A DNA stretch of 49,503 nt, taken from a virus (Duplodnaviria > Heunggongvirae > Uroviricota > Caudoviricetes). This document shows positions 23,316 to 33,193 of this stretch, one piece after another; position 1 is the stretch's first letter, and every line of letters begins with the position of its first letter. The DNA lies in the IMG/VR virus record IMGVR_UViG_3300006100_000010; one strand, given 5' to 3'. A program made the position numbers and the translations under genes. The notes under the pieces are model-generated. The model did no database searches and was not told where the DNA came from. It was given only the letters and a program-made list of their open reading frames with translations.

Positions 23316-23348
23316 GTGAAACTTAAGTCAAACCTTAAGTATAAATAA
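23316..23348 (+). promoter_or_regulatory. tRNA-array promoter 1: GTGAAACT-N15-GTATAAATAA
   Basis: Identical two boxes and 15-nt spacing at 23316, 27901 and 29434. Confidence 0.75.
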
Positions 23349-23368
23349 CAAAAAACGAAACATCTTCA

Positions 23369-23452
23369 ATGCTATTCAATAAAAATATGATCCTAGTTAT
23401 CGATTTCCAAGTGGAGACGGGGATAGATCGCATTGATAATGACGTGAGTTAA
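23369..23452 (+). CDS. Putative leader peptide 1 (MLFNKNMILVIDFQVETGIDRIDNDVS)
   Basis: Between promoter and terminator; stop lies 22 nt before the hairpin, as in leader 2. The start codon is uncertain. Confidence 0.45.
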   Translation: MLFNKNMILVIDFQVETGIDRIDNDVS

Positions 23453-23474
23453 GAAAAGTTCTAATAAAGAAAAG

Positions 23475-23505
23475 AACCTCAACTCACACCGAGTTGAGGT
23501 TTTTT
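23475..23505 (+). terminator. Terminator/attenuator hairpin upstream of tRNA-Asp
   Basis: AACCTCAACTC-ACACC-GAGTTGAGGTT plus T run. Confidence 0.85.
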
Positions 23506-23513
23506 ATTTTTAT

Positions 23514-23586
23514 GGACCTGGCGCATAACGGCTGGTGTACCCGACTGTCTATCGGTGTTTAGAGGGTTCGACTCCCTTCAGGTCCG
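23514..23586 (+). tRNA. tRNA-Asp(GTC)
   Basis: GGACCTG/CAGGTCC acceptor; loop CTGTCTA; T arm GAGGG-TTCGACT-CCCTT. Confidence 0.88.
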
Positions 23587-23646
23587 CTAAAATACTTCAC
23601 AGCAAAAGTCGTAAGTTCGAATGATAAATAATAAAAAGAAAGTATC

Positions 23647-24327
23647 ATGAAAACTTGCGAAAACTGTGGAAAAGATCACACTGGAGAATACGGAAGTGGT
23701 CGATTTTGTTCTTTGAAATGCTCTAGGGGATTTAGTACTAAAGGTAAGAGAAGTGAAATCAATAAAAAGGTATCAGCTGCTCTTAGCAATAGTGGGAACA
23801 CTCCAGTCAAAAAAAGTTGCAAGTTATGTAAGAATGAATTTGCTGTTGCTTGGAATAAGCGTAGGCAAATGTATTGTTCATCTTCATGCGCAGCAAAAGA
23901 TATTGGTTGGAAAAATAGTCATTCTAAAATCTCAAAGAGCAAGTGGTCTGAAATAAACAAAAGATCTTATGCTTTAGGTAAAAATCGAATTGCTGGTGGA
24001 ACTACCAAGTGGCTCAATTACAAAGACATAAAAGTTCAAGGAACGTATGAACTCGCTGCTTGTAAAAAGCTAGATCTACTTAAAGAAAGAGGTGAAATTT
24101 TTAAATGGGAATATGCAGTAAATCGAATATCCTATATAGGGATCGATAGAAAAAAGCACACATACTTAATTGATTTTACAGTTACACTACCTGATGGAAG
24201 TATTAAGTTCATCGAAGTTAAGGGAAGAGAAACTGATAATGATAAACTAAAGTGGAATGCGGTAAGAGAAGCGGGACATACTCTTGAAGTATGGAGAAAA
24301 TTTGATTTATTATCTAAAGTTCTTTAA
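23647..24327 (+). CDS. Free-standing PD-(D/E)XK (TnsA-like) endonuclease with N-terminal Cys-rich zinc fingers, homing-endonuclease-like
   Basis: YLIDF...FIEVKG catalytic motif; several CxxC/FCSxxC motifs; own GATAAATA promoter; inserted between tRNAs. Confidence 0.75.
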   Translation: MKTCENCGKDHTGEYGSGRFCSLKCSRGFSTKGKRSEINKKVSAALSNSGNTPVKKSCKLCKNEFAVAWNKRRQMYCSSSCAAKDIGWKNSHSKISKSKWSEINKRSYALGKNRIAGGTTKWLNYKDIKVQGTYELAACKKLDLLKERGEIFKWEYAVNRISYIGIDRKKHTYLIDFTVTLPDGSIKFIEVKGRETDNDKLKWNAVREAGHTLEVWRKFDLLSKVL

Positions 24328-24331
24328 AAAT

Positions 24332-24404
24332 GCCGAGATAGCTCAGTTGGTAGAGCGCAACACTCATAATGTTGAGGTAACGGGTTCAAACCCCGTTCTC
24401 GGTA
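24332..24404 (+). tRNA. tRNA-Met(CAT), probably elongator
   Basis: GCCGAGA/TCTCGGT; loop CTCATAA. Confidence 0.88.
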
Positions 24405-24416
24405 CGAAAATAACAT

Positions 24417-24489
24417 CGCGGGATGGAGCAGTTGGTAGCTCGTTGGGCTCATAACCCAAAGGTCATAGGTTCAAGTCCTATTCCCGCAA
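24417..24489 (+). tRNA. Initiator tRNA-fMet(CAT)
   Basis: C1:A72 mismatch; GGG/CCC in anticodon stem. Confidence 0.92.
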
Positions 24490-24492
24490 CTA

Positions 24493-24657
24493 AGTCAGTA
24501 GTAACGTGAGAGTTACTTCGAAATCCATTATCAGGACGGTGTCGGTGGTTCGAATCCATCTCTCCCCACTAAGAAGAAATTCTTAATTTTTAACTTGGGG
24601 AGATAGCTCAGCTGGTAGAGCACGTAAAAGAAAAATCTCTCGCAACTTTCTCTGACT
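24493..24657 (+). ncRNA. Y RNA-like RNA 1 (YrlA-type order: T arm, closed acceptor stem, D arm)
   Basis: AGTCAG-TAGTAAC-GTGAGAGT-TACTTC pairs with CTCTCGC-AACTTTCT-CTGACT; inside are T arm 24544-24560, TCTCCCCA/TGGGGAGA and D arm GCTC..GAGC; near the Ro60 gene. Confidence 0.8.
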
Positions 24658-24696
24658 AATTTTTTAAAAGCTAGGAGAATTTAGTATTATCTACAC

Positions 24697-25074
24697 ATGG
24701 ATAATAATTTAAGAGAACTAAGCAACCAGTTGTTAGCGATGCCAAAACAAATGGCAGACACACAACTCATAATCTTGGAAAAGAGCCAAGAGGCTCAGAA
24801 GATCGAGAACGAGATCTCTGAGATCGAGACTAAACTGAAGATGTCTATAGCAAATAAGCTGGACGAAAGCGGTAAGAAAGTCTACTCAAATGCAGATGCT
24901 AGAGAAGCTGCATTCGTCGAAGCCTGTACTGGTGAGTTTGACCTAATTGAATTAAAGTCAAAACTAGCAGCCATACAAAATCAAATTCAATTGTCAAAGA
25001 TTGCATATGAGAGGGTCGGCAACGAACAAAAGAATCTAAGAATAGTGTTACAACTATTTTCAGAAGCGGAATAA
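24697..25074 (+). CDS. Hypothetical coiled-coil protein
   Basis: 125 aa between Y RNA 1 and the Ro60 gene. Confidence 0.6.
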   Translation: MDNNLRELSNQLLAMPKQMADTQLIILEKSQEAQKIENEISEIETKLKMSIANKLDESGKKVYSNADAREAAFVEACTGEFDLIELKSKLAAIQNQIQLSKIAYERVGNEQKNLRIVLQLFSEAE

Positions 25075-31563: not shown

Positions 31564-31634
31564 TGTCCCTTCGTCTAATGGCAGGACATCTGATTTTGGC
31601 TCAGATAATTGAGGTTCGAATCCTTGAGGGACAA
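31564..31634 (+). tRNA. tRNA-Gln(TTG)
   Basis: TGTCCCT/AGGGACA; loop TTTTGGC. Confidence 0.88.
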
Positions 31635-31644
31635 CAATAACTAT

Positions 31645-31718
31645 GGGGAATTAGCTCACTTGGCTAGAGCGCCTGCTTTGCAAGCAGGAGGCAGCGAGTT
31701 CGACTCTCGCATTCTCCA
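31645..31718 (+). tRNA. tRNA-Ala(TGC)
   Basis: G3:U70; loop TTTGCAA. Confidence 0.94.
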
Positions 31719-31786
31719 CTTGAGGGAGGTGGGATGACCACCCAACGATTCAGCTCGTCACTGAGTCGGCTTCCCCAAAATAACTA

Positions 31787-31861
31787 GGACAAAAAGGTGT
31801 GGGGAGGATCGCACGCTGGGCTCGCAACCCAGAAGACTGGTTCGTGTCTCCAGTGAGTCCA
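31787..31861 (+). pseudogene. tRNA-like element with initiator-type anticodon stem and CGC triplet
   Basis: CTGGG-CTCGCAA-CCCAG, GTGT/GCAC D-like stem, ACTGG/CCAGT T-like stem with 9-nt loop, only 4-bp acceptor GGAC/GTCC. Confidence 0.45.
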
Positions 31862-31864
31862 TAT

Positions 31865-31938
31865 AGGCAATTAGCTCATTTGGTTAGAGCGCCGATCTGA
31901 TACGTCGGAGGTGCCCAGTTCGAGCCTGGGATTGCCTA
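31865..31938 (+). tRNA. tRNA-Ile(GAT)
   Basis: AGGCAAT/ATTGCCT; loop CTGATAC. Confidence 0.92.
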
Positions 31939-31954
31939 CTTAAAAACAAAAACA

Positions 31955-32410
31955 ATGTCACTAAAAGCAACAATCTATGCGGACTTTATGACTGCATTTA
32001 AAGCAAAAGAAGAAAAGGCAAAGTCTGCTCTGAGCATGCTGAAGGCAAAGATCACTGAAGCCGAAAAGGCAAATAAGAATCAGGAACTTACTGATGCTGA
32101 AGTGCTAAAGGTGATACTTGCTTCGGTGAAACAGAGAAAGCAATCGATCGGCGAATTTGAGAAGGGCGGCCGACCTGATCTTGTTGAAAAGGAGGCGGCA
32201 GAGCTCAAGGTTCTTGAAGCATACCTTCCAAAACAAATGTCTCGCGAAGAGATTGAGTCTGAATTGCGTACGATCCTACTTGGTTTTGGCGAAAAAGAAC
32301 CGCATAACAAAAAGGTGGGACAGAGCATGGGAATGTTCAATAAGAAGTTTCCAGGAATGGCTGACCCGAAGGTAGTACAAGAGGTCATAAATTCTCTGGT
32401 TGCTGCATAA
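31955..32410 (+). CDS. yqeY: GatB/YqeY domain protein
   Basis: MSLKATI..D...A.KAK, KQRKQSI..FEKGGRPDLVEKEAAELKVLEAYLPKQMS. Confidence 0.92.
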   Translation: MSLKATIYADFMTAFKAKEEKAKSALSMLKAKITEAEKANKNQELTDAEVLKVILASVKQRKQSIGEFEKGGRPDLVEKEAAELKVLEAYLPKQMSREEIESELRTILLGFGEKEPHNKKVGQSMGMFNKKFPGMADPKVVQEVINSLVAA

Positions 32411-32421
32411 AAATCAATAAT

Positions 32422-32504
32422 GGAGAGTGCCCGAATGGACGAGGAACCTGTCTTGAAAACAGCTGGGTGTAAAAGCTTTGGGGGTTCGATTCCCTCACTC
32501 TCCG
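32422..32504 (+). tRNA. tRNA-Ser(TGA)
   Basis: GGAGAGT/ACTCTCC, G73; loop CTTGAAA; long variable arm. Confidence 0.88.
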
Positions 32505-32540
32505 CCGAAAACCAATAGTCATGGAAAAAAGATCTCCGAA

Positions 32541-32963
32541 ATGTCGGACGCTGAGTTTACTGCCTTTGCTGAAAAGGAAAAGGCTGAAATACAACTCGCT
32601 AAGAAAAAAGAGCTGCTCGATCGCTGGAATAATCTTCCTAGGTTCGATGAGGTGCACCAAGTTCCTATTCTGCCTCAGGTAGACGATCCAAGGGAATGGT
32701 CAGAGTTTTATGTAAAGAAACTCATCTCATCTGGAGCTATTCCCAAGGAGGCCCTAAAGGATGGAGAGCATTACGTGGGATCCCATCGCAGAGCGCAAGT
32801 CGCTCGATGGAATTCTGAAATGGGTCGATTTGAATACTGGAGAACCAAGTTCAACCAGACTTTCATCGACTACTGTAATCACTTTGAAGACGACGACGGG
32901 TTTTCTCTGTTTGTTCCAATTGGCACTGCCTCGAAAGATCAGTTTGAAAAGAACGAAATATAA
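32541..32963 (+). CDS. Hypothetical phage protein
   Basis: The ORF-track start lies inside tRNA-Ser; first in-frame ATG outside it is 32541. Confidence 0.6.
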   Translation: MSDAEFTAFAEKEKAEIQLAKKKELLDRWNNLPRFDEVHQVPILPQVDDPREWSEFYVKKLISSGAIPKEALKDGEHYVGSHRRAQVARWNSEMGRFEYWRTKFNQTFIDYCNHFEDDDGFSLFVPIGTASKDQFEKNEI

Positions 32964-32966
32964 TTT

Positions 32967-33055
32967 GGAAAGGTACTCAAGATGGCTTAAGAGGACGCTT
33001 TGCTAAAGCGTTAGGTCGGGTAACTGGCGCGTGGGTTCAAATCCCACTCTTTCCG
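32967..33055 (+). tRNA. tRNA-Ser(GCT)
   Basis: GGAAAGG/TCTTTCC; loop TTGCTAA; long variable arm. Confidence 0.92.
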
Positions 33056-33119
33056 CAAAAAGACTGTTGATGTAGGCTGTCAGCCATAGAGGGGTGAGTC
33101 AAACATATTCCCTTCACAT

Positions 33120-33193
33120 GGAGTCATTAGCTCAATTGGTAGAGTGCCGGGTTGTGGTCCCGGAGGCAATGGGATCGAAGCCCATATGACTCC
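33120..33193 (+). tRNA. tRNA-His(GTG) with encoded G-1
   Basis: G-1:C73; loop TTGTGGT; T loop ATCGAAG. Confidence 0.88.

What the first reader, a model, noticed from the sequence alone, without database searches (positions are those of the whole stretch)
23316..33193. Candidate integrated system: translation-stress-inducible tRNA resupply plus Ro60/Y-RNA surveillance
Seen: within 10 kb are 31 tRNAs for all 20 amino acids, Rsr, six Y-like RNAs, attenuator-like leaders, boxA-like elements and YqeY, all on one strand. Established: in Salmonella the rsr-yrlBA-rtcBA operon is induced by tRNA cleavage via RtcR, and many anti-phage systems cleave tRNA. No RtcB or RtcR is in this window. Inference: attenuation may replace RtcR as the sensor of tRNA damage, making this a phage counter-defence module.
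Basis: inference. Interest (0 to 1): 0.75.

Follow-up and report, generated by a model that had tools for sequence, protein, structure and literature searches.

The report
Ribosome-gated phage tRNA and Ro60 operon
An uncultured phage of Bacteroidota-type hosts carries a full set of 31 tRNA genes, the RNA-quality-control protein Ro60 and five Y RNAs. Much of this lies behind two tiny translated genes wired to switchable transcription stops, so the phage probably makes these RNAs mainly when ribosomes slow down, a control I could not find published for tRNA genes.

Summary
All on the + strand between 23316 and 33194 lie:
- 31 canonical tRNAs covering all 20 amino acids;
- Rsr/Ro60, confirmed by fold and by its MIDAS motif;
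- five complete YrlA-like Y RNAs plus one 5' remnant;
- YqeY;
- three copies of an array-specific promoter box;
- two leader-peptide attenuators;
- three boxA elements.

The attenuators are real by comparative evidence. I found 19 instances in about 10 unrelated sequence families among 37 related viral loci. Each has a 27-51 codon ORF whose last codons carry a 6-10 nt Watson-Crick complement of the 5' arm of a terminator 20-31 nt downstream, followed by a tRNA (combined p about 6e-16). All 12 family representatives switch structure in folding tests, and pooled pN/pS is 0.48.

The boxA motif is identical to the 16S-23S spacer and 16S leader boxA of Bacteroidota rrn operons, which points to the host.

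Attenuation does gate rsr, the Y RNAs and the tRNAs. That it senses tRNA damage as a counter-defence is unproven: the window's leaders are not codon-matched, RtcB is absent from five relatives, and YqeY is sporadic.

Earlier notes of this scan report similar attenuators on other DNA. In print I found only the promoter-repressor control (TrcR) of the Anabaena tRNA array.

The parts
23315..23348 (+). Promoter box P1 (GAAAC, 16-nt spacer, extended TATAAATA -10-like element)
   Evidence: Exact box occurs 3 times in the window, all in the array, 0 expected. It occurs once per 128-207 kb relative genome, always in the array.
23369..23452 (+). Leader ORF A (27 codons). Its last codons and stop contain antiterminator region 2 (23444-23450).
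   Evidence: Homologous 27-28 codon ORFs in L001, L032, L007, L009, L186 and L188, with an in-frame indel. 7/7 tRNA-linked terminators of this stem type have the ORF; 0/7 unlinked ones do.
23474..23512 (+). Intrinsic terminator T1 (stem 23474-23502, dG -17 kcal/mol, then T tract). Its 5' arm (23481-23487) pairs with region 2.
   Evidence: tRNA-Asp starts 11 nt after the stem, leaving no room for another promoter.
23513..24490 (+). tRNA-Asp, endonuclease-like ORF226 (23647-24327), and two tRNA(CAU)
24493..24657 (+). Y RNA Y1: closing stem with conserved internal loops, and a permuted tRNA-like core (T arm, closed acceptor-like stem, D arm)
   Evidence: Full-length alignment to Rfam YrlA at 32 bits, below the gathering score of 69. 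Stems.
24697..25074 (+). ORF125, a viral protein of unknown function directly upstream of rsr
   Evidence: Found in the same position in 7 relatives. Viral-only clusters with no Pfam family.
25168..26793 (+). rsr (Ro60 orthologue: TROVE ring plus vWA with MIDAS)
26861..26873 (+). boxA copy 1, 4 nt before Y2
   Evidence: Same position in L001 and in many relatives before Y RNAs. Motif equals the Bacteroidota rrn boxA.
26878..27293 (+). Y RNAs Y2 (26878-27004), Y3 (27014-27154) and Y4 (27165-27293). The Y2 and Y4 cores are in normal tRNA order.
27299..27765 (+). tRNA-Gly, tRNA(CAU), Y RNA Y5 (27541-27683), tRNA-Glu
27900..27933 (+). Promoter box P2
   Evidence: The ATG of leader B lies 8 nt after the -10-like element, so the mRNA would be nearly leaderless (read from the sequence).
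27941..28063 (+). Leader ORF B (40 codons). Region 2 is at 28045-28052.
   Evidence: The L001 homolog is 90% identical with 8 of 12 changes at third codon positions (pS 0.27, pN 0.05). Region 2 is kept in a different reading frame in L005-type copies.
28085..28122 (+). Intrinsic terminator T2 (stem 28085-28113). Its 5' arm (28085-28092) pairs with region 2.
   Evidence: Weak Rfam Thr_leader match at 28053-28119.
28123..29402 (+). tRNA-Val, Lys, Lys, an HNH endonuclease (about 28463-28969), tRNA-Gly, Val, Thr
29433..29686 (+). Promoter box P3 (29433-29466), leader ORF (29491-29586, 31 codons), conserved long hairpin (29591-29651), boxA copy 2 (29674-29686). There is no intrinsic terminator.
29688..33194 (+). 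Main tRNA block: Met, Tyr, Phe, Arg, Leu, Arg, Leu; boxA copy 3 (30379-30396, 16S-leader type); a tRNA-like element (30602-30684); Pro, Leu, Leu; the Y6 5' remnant (31227-31251); Cys, Trp, Asn, Gln, Ala, Ile; YqeY (31955-32410); Ser; ORF161 (32478-32963); Ser, His

Best explanation
The locus is a phage RNA super-operon in three transcription units. Each unit is driven by a promoter class found only in the array.

Units 1 and 2 open with a leader-peptide transcription attenuator:
- A ribosome that translates the short leader ORF to its stop codon covers 'region 2'. The intrinsic terminator 21 nt downstream then forms, and transcription stops just before the first tRNA.
- If the ribosome lags or stalls (slow decoding, few charged tRNAs, few free ribosomes), region 2 pairs with the terminator's 5' arm as it emerges. 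The polymerase then reads through.
- Readthrough of unit 1 gives tRNA-Asp, two tRNA(CAU), rsr, five Y RNAs and three more tRNAs. Readthrough of unit 2 gives six tRNAs.

Unit 3, the largest tRNA block, has a conserved leader ORF and hairpin but no intrinsic terminator.

Host-type rrn boxA elements inside the units probably recruit the host Nus antitermination factors, so that the long untranslated transcripts are completed.

The net effect is that tRNA supply and the Ro60/Y-RNA machinery are coupled to the state of translation in the infected Bacteroidota cell.

Shown here: the anatomy, its conservation and covariation, and the structural switch in silico. Inferred: that the leaders are translated, that ribosome position is the signal, that boxA acts through Nus factors, and what Rsr and the Y RNAs do.
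For: Where transcription must pass:
- The only + strand intrinsic terminators inside the 10-kb array are the two that sit 10-11 nt before a tRNA, with a promoter box and short ORF upstream.

Conservation of the attenuator geometry:
- The same geometry recurs 19 times in about 10 unrelated sequence families in relatives whose Rsr identity runs from 81% down to 36%.
- Of 159 other + strand terminators, only 11 fit the criterion, and all 11 also precede tRNAs.
- Region 2 versus the 5' arm is Watson-Crick over 6-10 nt and changes sequence with the terminator. Shuffle tests give p <= 0.03 for each of families B-G and a Fisher combined p of 6e-16.
- Among terminators sharing one stem type, 7/7 tRNA-linked copies have the leader ORF and region 2, against 0/7 unlinked copies.

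Folding:
- In 12/12 representatives the nascent RNA pairs the 5' arm with region 2.
- The terminator forms once a ribosome footprint at the stop codon is masked.

Coding signature:
- ORF lengths are exactly conserved at 67-94% nucleotide identity, and the only indel is in-frame.
- Pooled pN/pS is 0.48, and 0.15-0.45 in families B-E.
- Some relatives' leaders are codon-matched to the tRNAs that follow them (family G p <= 0.001; D_L010 p = 0.004).

boxA:
- The exact 13-mer occurs 25 times in relatives, always on the + strand. It sits after attenuator terminators and before tRNAs and Y RNAs.
- The 17-mer hits at least 120 genome stretches, nearly all Bacteroidota. In 7/7 checked it lies between tRNA-Ala and the 23S.
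- The window's third copy matches the motif at about -145 of Chitinophagaceae 16S genes.

Rsr is confirmed. The Y RNA stems show compensatory changes in 43 unique copies from 19 loci.
Against: - There are no expression data of any kind.
- Translation of the leaders is inferred. There is no Shine-Dalgarno sequence, which is expected for Bacteroidota from general knowledge but means start sites cannot be checked.
- Families G and P3 have pN/pS near 1.
- The window's own leaders show no significant enrichment of codons for the downstream tRNAs and no unusual amino-acid diversity, so what they would sense is unclear.
- I found no clear region 1 that would enforce termination when the leader is not translated at all.
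- The largest tRNA block (unit 3) has no terminator, so roughly half of the tRNAs may not be gated this way.
- The boxA copies in the window alone are not above chance.
- The families are not fully independent: A1-A3 and B1-B3 share terminator sequence.
Confidence: 0.7

Rival explanations
1. Inducible counter-defence. The attenuators specifically detect depletion of host tRNAs by anticodon nucleases or other tRNA-targeting defences, and respond by resupplying nuclease-resistant phage tRNAs. Ro60 and the Y RNAs then clear or shield damaged tRNA, with attenuation taking the place of RtcR.
For: - The attenuators gate rsr, the Y RNAs and the tRNAs together.
- Phage tRNAs are shown in print to counter tRNA-cleaving defences (PMC10264068, PMC11555353).
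- The Salmonella rsr-yrlBA-rtcBA operon is induced by damaged tRNAs (PMC7790460).
- Several Y RNA cores are tRNA-shaped, two of them in normal tRNA order.
- More distant relatives place an RNA ligase beside the array. One has a CCA-adding enzyme, a P-loop kinase and an RNA ligase within about 7 kb of each other, roughly 4-10 kb from the array.
Against: - There is no RtcB in 5/5 relatives and no RNA ligase in the window; its ligase is a DNA ligase.
- The leader codons in the window are not biased to any known nuclease target or to the downstream tRNAs.
- Any slowing of translation would give the same output, so the anatomy does not discriminate defence from ordinary demand.
- The host and its defences are unknown.
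Confidence: 0.2
2. The alternative RNA structure is switched by a trans-acting factor rather than by a translating ribosome. Candidates are a phage or host antiterminator protein, or an uncharged tRNA binding as in a T-box. On this reading the short ORFs are not translated sensors.
For: - The antiterminator/terminator alternative is what is actually demonstrated.
- Translation is inferred. Families G and P3 show pN/pS near 1.
- There is no recognisable ribosome-binding site.
Against: - The stop codon always lies 20-31 nt before the terminator, with region 2 within the last 25 nt of the ORF. A ribosome footprint explains this spacing; a protein or tRNA ligand does not.
- ORF lengths are conserved, the only indel is in-frame, and substitutions are biased to the third codon position in families B-E.
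- There is no T-box or other riboswitch match in Rfam.
- Region 2 is kept in a different reading frame in L005-type copies while an ORF is still present.
Confidence: 0.1
3. Ordinary constitutive or temporally programmed tRNA cluster. The small ORFs and terminators are incidental: leaky terminators, or the ends of small early genes. The tRNAs are made by unregulated readthrough or processing.
For: - Phage tRNA clusters such as that of T4 are expressed from upstream promoters without known attenuation (general knowledge).
- The -10-like element resembles the T4 late-promoter consensus, which hints at a temporal class.
- Unit 3 has no terminator.
Against: - Covarying complementarity with p about 6e-16.
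- The feature is specific to tRNA-linked terminators.
- It is conserved down to 36% Rsr identity.
Confidence: 0.05

Closest known systems
Leader-peptide transcription attenuators of enterobacterial amino-acid operons (trpL, hisL, thrL, pheL; multivalent ilvGMEDA leader)
   Same: A short translated ORF. An antiterminator segment covered by a ribosome at the stop codon. A mutually exclusive intrinsic terminator immediately upstream of the regulated genes. The terminator is thermodynamically stronger than the antiterminator, so the choice is kinetic. Rfam Thr_leader gives a weak match on T2.
   Different: The regulated genes are tRNAs, Y RNAs and rsr rather than biosynthetic enzymes. The element is in a phage. 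The window's leaders have no run of cognate codons. I see no clear region 1:2 pause hairpin. The host clade initiates translation without a Shine-Dalgarno sequence.
Anabaena sp. PCC 7120 long tRNA array (trn operon, 'L-array') induced by translational stress (PMC8421152; repressor TrcR, PMC10272220)
   Same: A supernumerary tRNA array on one strand, accompanied by a homing endonuclease gene, whose expression is tied to impaired translation and linked to RNA-repair genes.
   Different: That array is controlled at the promoter by the repressor TrcR binding direct repeats. Neither paper mentions attenuation or a leader peptide. It is bacterial rather than phage, and has no Ro60 or Y RNA.
Salmonella rsr-yrlBA-rtcBA RNA repair operon activated by RtcR on tRNA damage (PMC7790460)
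   Same: rsr and Y RNAs are co-transcribed under a stress-responsive switch connected to tRNA integrity.
   Different: There is no RtcR, RtcB or RtcA here or in 5 relatives. The switch is a cis-acting attenuator rather than a sigma-54 activator. tRNA genes are part of the operon.
Phage Ro60 with adjacent Y RNA-like genes: mycobacteriophages, CcrColossus and Bacillus phage G (PMC4201824); Thermus phage phiLo Ro60-Yrl1/2 (PMC12135203)
   Same: A phage-encoded Ro60 with Y-like RNAs next to it. The fold is closest to phiLo Ro60. Y1 has the YrlA permuted tRNA-like module.
   Different: There are five complete Y RNAs of two core topologies in one locus. The clade has its own closing-stem signature, and all copies score below the Rfam YrlA threshold. 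The genes are embedded in an attenuator-gated tRNA operon.
rrn operon boxA (NusB/NusE-dependent processive antitermination)
   Same: The motif is identical to the one in the 16S-23S spacer and 16S leader of Bacteroidota rrn operons. It lies in long untranslated transcripts upstream of structured RNA genes.
   Different: It is located in a phage tRNA/Y RNA array. Its function in Bacteroidota has not been tested experimentally as far as I know. In relatives it often follows the attenuator terminator.

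Membership tests
Leader-peptide transcription attenuator | Short ORF between the promoter and the regulated genes | tested here: met
   ORFs at 23369-23452 and 27941-28063, with homologs of conserved length in relatives.
Leader-peptide transcription attenuator | Intrinsic terminator between the leader ORF and the first regulated gene | tested here: met
   T1 at 23474-23502 and T2 at 28085-28113 (dG -17 and -15 kcal/mol, each with a T tract), 10-11 nt before a tRNA. Not met for unit 3.
Leader-peptide transcription attenuator | Antiterminator mutually exclusive with the terminator, and overlapping the stretch covered by a ribosome at the end of the ORF | tested here: met
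   Region 2 lies within the last 25 nt of the ORF. It covaries with the 5' arm (p = 6e-16). 12/12 representatives switch structure in folding tests.
Leader-peptide transcription attenuator | Regulatory codons matching the regulated function | tested here: inconclusive
   Window leaders: p = 0.057, 0.23 and 0.13. Relatives' family G: p <= 0.001. D_L010: p = 0.004.
Leader-peptide transcription attenuator | Readthrough depends on ribosome position (experimental) | not testable with these tools
   Needs reporter fusions, term-seq or Ribo-seq.
Ro60 / Rsr | TROVE HEAT-repeat ring plus a C-terminal vWA domain with MIDAS | tested here: met
   TROVE 27.3 bits (cut-off 23). vWA_Ro60 24.3 bits (cut-off 27.7). 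DxSxS...T...D is invariant. The 12 best PDB fold matches are all Ro60. phmmer against PDB sequences found nothing.
YrlA (Rfam RF02553) | Score at or above the family's gathering threshold | tested here: not met
   The best hit is Y1 at 32.3 bits against 69. Y2-Y5 are not reported as YrlA.
YrlA (Rfam RF02553) | 5'/3' closing stem with a Ro-binding motif near the 5' end (GNCGAA type) and a tRNA-like T / acceptor-like / D module, encoded next to rsr (PMC4201824) | tested here: met
   Met in full for Y1: model positions 1-114 align, and the CGAA motif, T arm, closed stem and D arm are present. Y2-Y5 share the stem and its conserved loops, but their cores differ: D-to-T order in Y4, T-arm only by my motif test in the others. 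All lie within 1.1 kb of rsr.
rrn-type boxA antitermination element | Sequence shared with the boxA position of host rrn operons, on the transcribed strand upstream of structured RNA genes | tested here: met
   Strand bias in the loci is 111 + versus 32 -.
rrn-type boxA antitermination element | Binding of NusB/NusE and a processivity effect | not testable with these tools
RtcR/RtcBA RNA repair operon | Presence of the RtcB ligase and the RtcR activator | tested here: not met
   There is no such domain in the window's ORFs. PF01139 is found in 0/5 related genomes, and the control genomes ring.

The most novel reading that the evidence does not exclude
The locus is an inducible phage counter-defence. 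Leader-peptide attenuators act as generic sensors of ribosome stalling caused by host tRNA-cleaving immunity. On stalling they release a complete replacement tRNA set together with Ro60 and tRNA-shaped Y RNAs, which act as decoys or as tethers to clear cleaved tRNAs. Hijacked host rrn boxA antitermination guarantees that the transcripts are completed.
Probability: 0.2. Interest if true: 0.9.

Novelty: new variant of a known kind. Interest (0 to 1): 0.74.

Why it matters
Why phages carry tRNA genes has been debated for more than 50 years. Codon compensation and defence evasion are the main proposals.

A ribosome-sensing attenuator in front of tRNA blocks says when the phage calls for them: when translation slows. 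That makes the question directly testable with simple reporter fusions.

It would also extend leader-peptide attenuation from amino-acid operons to non-coding RNA genes. It would put Ro60 and Y RNAs under a translation-state signal without RtcR. And it shows a phage copying its host's rrn boxA, which also gives a new handle for host prediction.

Tried and rejected
- Close relatives among deposited phages: only tRNA-sized matches. Rsr has distant hits only.
- The window's own genome is not held, so the search of 'the rest of the genome' was done on relatives' contigs.
- Rfam at gathering threshold gives no YrlA. phmmer of Rsr against PDB sequences found nothing, so I used a fold search instead.
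- The idea that each leader spells nearly all amino acids as an all-tRNA sensor is not significant for the window's leaders (p = 0.55, 0.13, 0.27). It is significant only in relatives: families E and F (p = 0.004) and, marginally, the A2 copies (p = 0.04).
- Codon matching to the downstream tRNAs is not significant in the window.
- E. coli-type boxA is at chance level. The Bacteroidota-type motif in the window alone is also at chance level.
- No 3' half of Y6 was found within 2.2 kb.
- I found no intrinsic terminator in the P3 leader.
- My first, relaxed Y RNA motif search gave many false positives. I replaced it with a strict filter.
- A first promoter scan of relatives used the wrong spacer and found nothing. 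It was corrected.
- The Rnl1 family search is uninformative because the control genomes were silent.
- ORF125 could not be assigned a function.
It was rerun from coordinates.

Full report
**What is there**

The window is a fragment of an uncultured tailed phage. It encodes an ATP-dependent DNA ligase, thymidylate synthase, a sigma factor, an endolysin-like protein and baseplate-like proteins. It has no close relative among deposited phages.

Between 23316 and 33194 every feature is on the + strand:
- ARAGORN genes. Of these, 31 are canonical tRNAs covering all 20 amino acids. One (27192-27266) is the tRNA-like core of a Y RNA.
- The embedded proteins are Rsr (25168-26793), YqeY (31955-32410), an HNH endonuclease, a second endonuclease-like ORF (23647-24327), and two proteins of unknown function (ORF125, ORF161).
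- Rsr is secure. It matches TROVE above cut-off, and the full vWA MIDAS signature is invariant in 13 homologs. An AlphaFold model (pLDDT 80) has as its 12 best PDB matches only Ro60 proteins, the closest being the Thermus phage phiLo Ro60.

**Y RNAs**

Five elements share a two-part closing stem around conserved internal loops (5' UAGYAAC, 3' AACUUUCU), followed by GUUACUUCG, and enclose a tRNA-like core. They lie at 24493-24657, 26878-27004, 27014-27154, 27165-27293 and 27541-27683.
- Y1 aligns over the whole Rfam YrlA model, with the CGAA motif, T arm, closed acceptor-like stem and D arm. It scores only 32 bits against a threshold of 69.
- Y2 and Y4 carry their tRNA-like core in normal D-to-T order.
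- A sixth copy of the 5' signature (31227-31251) has no 3' partner within 2.2 kb and is a remnant.
- Across relatives, a strict filter finds 43 unique copies in 19 loci, with compensatory changes at most stem positions. My search required pairing, so the pairing percentages are biased; the variety of pair types is not.
- Rsr with adjacent YrlA-like RNAs in tRNA-rich phages is already published (PMC4201824, PMC12135203). This part is therefore a new member of a known kind.

**Attenuators**

An exact promoter-like box (GAAAC, 16-nt spacer, extended TATAAATA) occurs three times in the window, at 23315, 27900 and 29433, with none expected by chance. It occurs once per 128-207 kb in three related genomes, always inside the array.

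Behind the first two boxes the layout is the same:
1. A short ORF of 27 or 40 codons.
2. A strong intrinsic terminator whose stem starts 21 nt after the stop codon.
3. A tRNA 10-11 nt after the stem.

These are the only + strand intrinsic terminators in the array. tRNA-Asp through tRNA-Glu, including rsr and all five Y RNAs, and the Val-to-Thr block must therefore be transcribed through them. In each case the last codons of the ORF contain a segment complementary to the terminator's 5' arm: 23444-23450 with 23481-23487, and 28045-28052 with 28085-28092.

**Comparative test**

Using Rsr as the query, I fetched 37 related viral loci (81-36% identity, contigs up to 294 kb). All carry + strand tRNA arrays around rsr. 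The results were:
- A sequence-independent scan found the same geometry 19 times in about 10 unrelated leader/terminator families. Each has an ORF of 27-51 codons (L005-type copies apparently use a non-ATG start), a stop 20-31 nt before the stem, a 6-10 nt Watson-Crick complement of the 5' arm within the last 25 nt of the ORF, and a tRNA downstream.
- The complementary pair differs from family to family, which is covariation. Shuffling the ORF 3' end gives p <= 0.03 in each of the sequence-independent families B-G and 6e-16 combined. Some representatives share terminators, so the combined value is optimistic.
- Of 159 other + strand terminators, 11 meet the criterion, and all 11 also precede tRNAs.
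- Among terminators sharing one stem sequence in the viral collection, 7 of 7 that precede a tRNA have the leader ORF and the stop-overlapping complement. None of the 7 that do not precede a tRNA has either.
- In 12 of 12 representatives, the nascent RNA lacking the 3' arm folds with the 5' arm paired to region 2 (worth -2 to -14 kcal/mol). The terminator forms once a ribosome footprint at the stop codon is masked. The terminator is the more stable structure in 11 of 12, as in trpL.
- The ORFs behave as coding sequence. Lengths are identical between homologs at 67-94% nucleotide identity. The only indel is in-frame. Pooled pN/pS is 0.48, and 0.15-0.45 in families B-E. Families G and P3 are near 1.
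- In L005-type copies, region 2 is preserved in a different reading frame, so it is conserved as RNA.

**What the leaders might sense**

- In relatives, family G leaders are rich in Ser, Thr, Cys and His and are followed by tRNAs for those amino acids (p <= 0.001). One family D leader is also matched (p = 0.004).
- The window's leaders are not: p = 0.057 (Asp before tRNA-Asp), 0.23 and 0.13.
- Their amino-acid diversity is ordinary.
- Pooled, the leaders are modestly enriched in Asn and Gln and share an N-terminal Lys/Asn...Asn-Ile pattern.

I therefore read the window's attenuators as general gauges of whether a ribosome keeps pace, not as sensors of particular tRNAs.

Unit 3 (29433 onward, the largest block) has a conserved 31-codon ORF and a conserved long hairpin, but no T-tract terminator. 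How it is regulated is open.

**boxA**

- A 13-nt motif beginning GTTCTTTGA occurs 25 times in exact form in the relatives, always on the + strand.
- Its core shows 111 + versus 32 - occurrences. It sits right after attenuator terminators, 12-30 nt before tRNAs, and just before Y RNAs.
- The window has copies at 26861 (before Y2), 29674 (14 nt before tRNA(CAU)) and 30379. The first two are at the same positions in the closest relative, L001. In the window alone the motif is not above chance.
These were nearly all Bacteroidota, such as Pedobacter, Mucilaginibacter and Chitinophagaceae.
- In 7 of 7 checked loci the motif lies in the 16S-23S spacer after tRNA-Ala, 100-210 nt before the 23S, which is the classical spacer boxA position.
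- The variant at 30379 matches the motif about 145 nt upstream of the 16S in Chitinophagaceae.

The host is probably a member of the Bacteroidota, which also fits the A-rich leader ORF start regions lacking a Shine-Dalgarno sequence (general knowledge). That boxA recruits Nus factors here is inference.

**The repair and counter-defence idea**

- The window has no RtcB, RtcR or RNA ligase. Its ligase is a DNA ligase.
- In five related genomes, two of them estimated complete, RtcB is absent (0/5, controls positive) and a CCA-adding enzyme is present in one.
- True PF09414 RNA ligases flank the array in two more distant relatives.
- The 294-kb relative has a CCA-adding enzyme, a P-loop kinase and an RNA ligase within about 7 kb of each other, roughly 4-10 kb from its array.
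- YqeY accompanies Rsr in 3 of 37 loci. ORF125 sits directly upstream of rsr in 7.

An RNA-repair association therefore exists in the wider clade but not in this phage. Nothing in the sequence separates 'senses tRNA damage by host defence' from 'senses any shortfall in translation'.

**Comparison with what is known**

- Mechanistically, the closest match is the classical leader-peptide attenuator.
- Conceptually, the closest is the Anabaena tRNA array induced by translational stress. That array is controlled by the promoter-bound repressor TrcR, and neither paper mentions attenuation.
- I found no paper that pairs tRNA arrays with attenuators.
- Phage tRNAs as counter-defence, and homing endonucleases in tRNA clusters, are published.
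- Earlier notes of this same scan report similar attenuators before tRNA arrays on other DNA, including a soil phage with Ro60/Y RNAs and planctomycete arrays. I treated them as leads. One gave me the Anabaena reference. Their claim of codon matching holds here only for relatives, not for this window.

**Verdict**

The novel element is ribosome-gated transcription of a tRNA/Ro60/Y-RNA operon, combined with borrowed rrn boxA. It is a new variant of a known kind of switch, well supported by comparative sequence evidence and untested experimentally.

Noticed in passing
window 27770-27885: After tRNA-Glu, an 11-bp long-range stem encloses about 90 nt. Its 3' arm repeats the last 10 nt of leader A (the region 2 sequence plus the stop codon). 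On the - strand it reads as a terminator. It could be a processing site or the relic of a duplicated leader at the junction of units 1 and 2.
   Followed up: no
window 30602-30684: A tRNA-like element scoring 33.5 bits with Rfam tRNA (above threshold) but not called by ARAGORN. It lies just upstream of tRNA-Pro and could be a degenerate tRNA or another mimic.
   Followed up: partly
window 28409-28969 and 23647-24327: An HNH endonuclease and a second endonuclease-like ORF are inserted between tRNA genes. Both are sporadic in relatives (5 and 7 of 37 loci), as expected of homing endonucleases that move tRNA clusters (compare T4 SegB). The annotated HNH start overlaps tRNA-Lys, so the true start is probably at 28463 or later.
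   Followed up: partly
window 27925-27943: The ATG of leader B lies only 8 nt after the -10-like element of P2, so this leader mRNA would be leaderless or nearly so.
   Followed up: no
G003 (contig of L024), about 258.4-265.3 kb: In the 294-kb relative, a CCA-adding enzyme, a P-loop (AAA_33) kinase and a PF09414 RNA ligase cluster within about 7 kb of each other, roughly 4-10 kb beyond the tRNA/rsr array. This looks like a candidate RNA-repair island, and it is absent from the window.
   Followed up: partly
window 40000-48000: G+C rises to 47-52%, against 36-44% in the rest of the window, over - strand genes that include a baseplate/virion-like protein (41227-42033).
   Followed up: no
window 7224-8027, 12509-12988, 21396-22214(-), 36572-37144: Accessory genes near the array: an FkbM-type methyltransferase, a NUDIX hydrolase, a sulfotransferase and a CAP-domain protein.
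   Followed up: no
window 24332-24490, 27413-27486, 29688-29763: There are four tRNA genes with anticodon CAU. Presumably these are an initiator, an elongator Met and at least one Ile2-type tRNA. Several leaders use the ATA codon at position 7.
   Followed up: no
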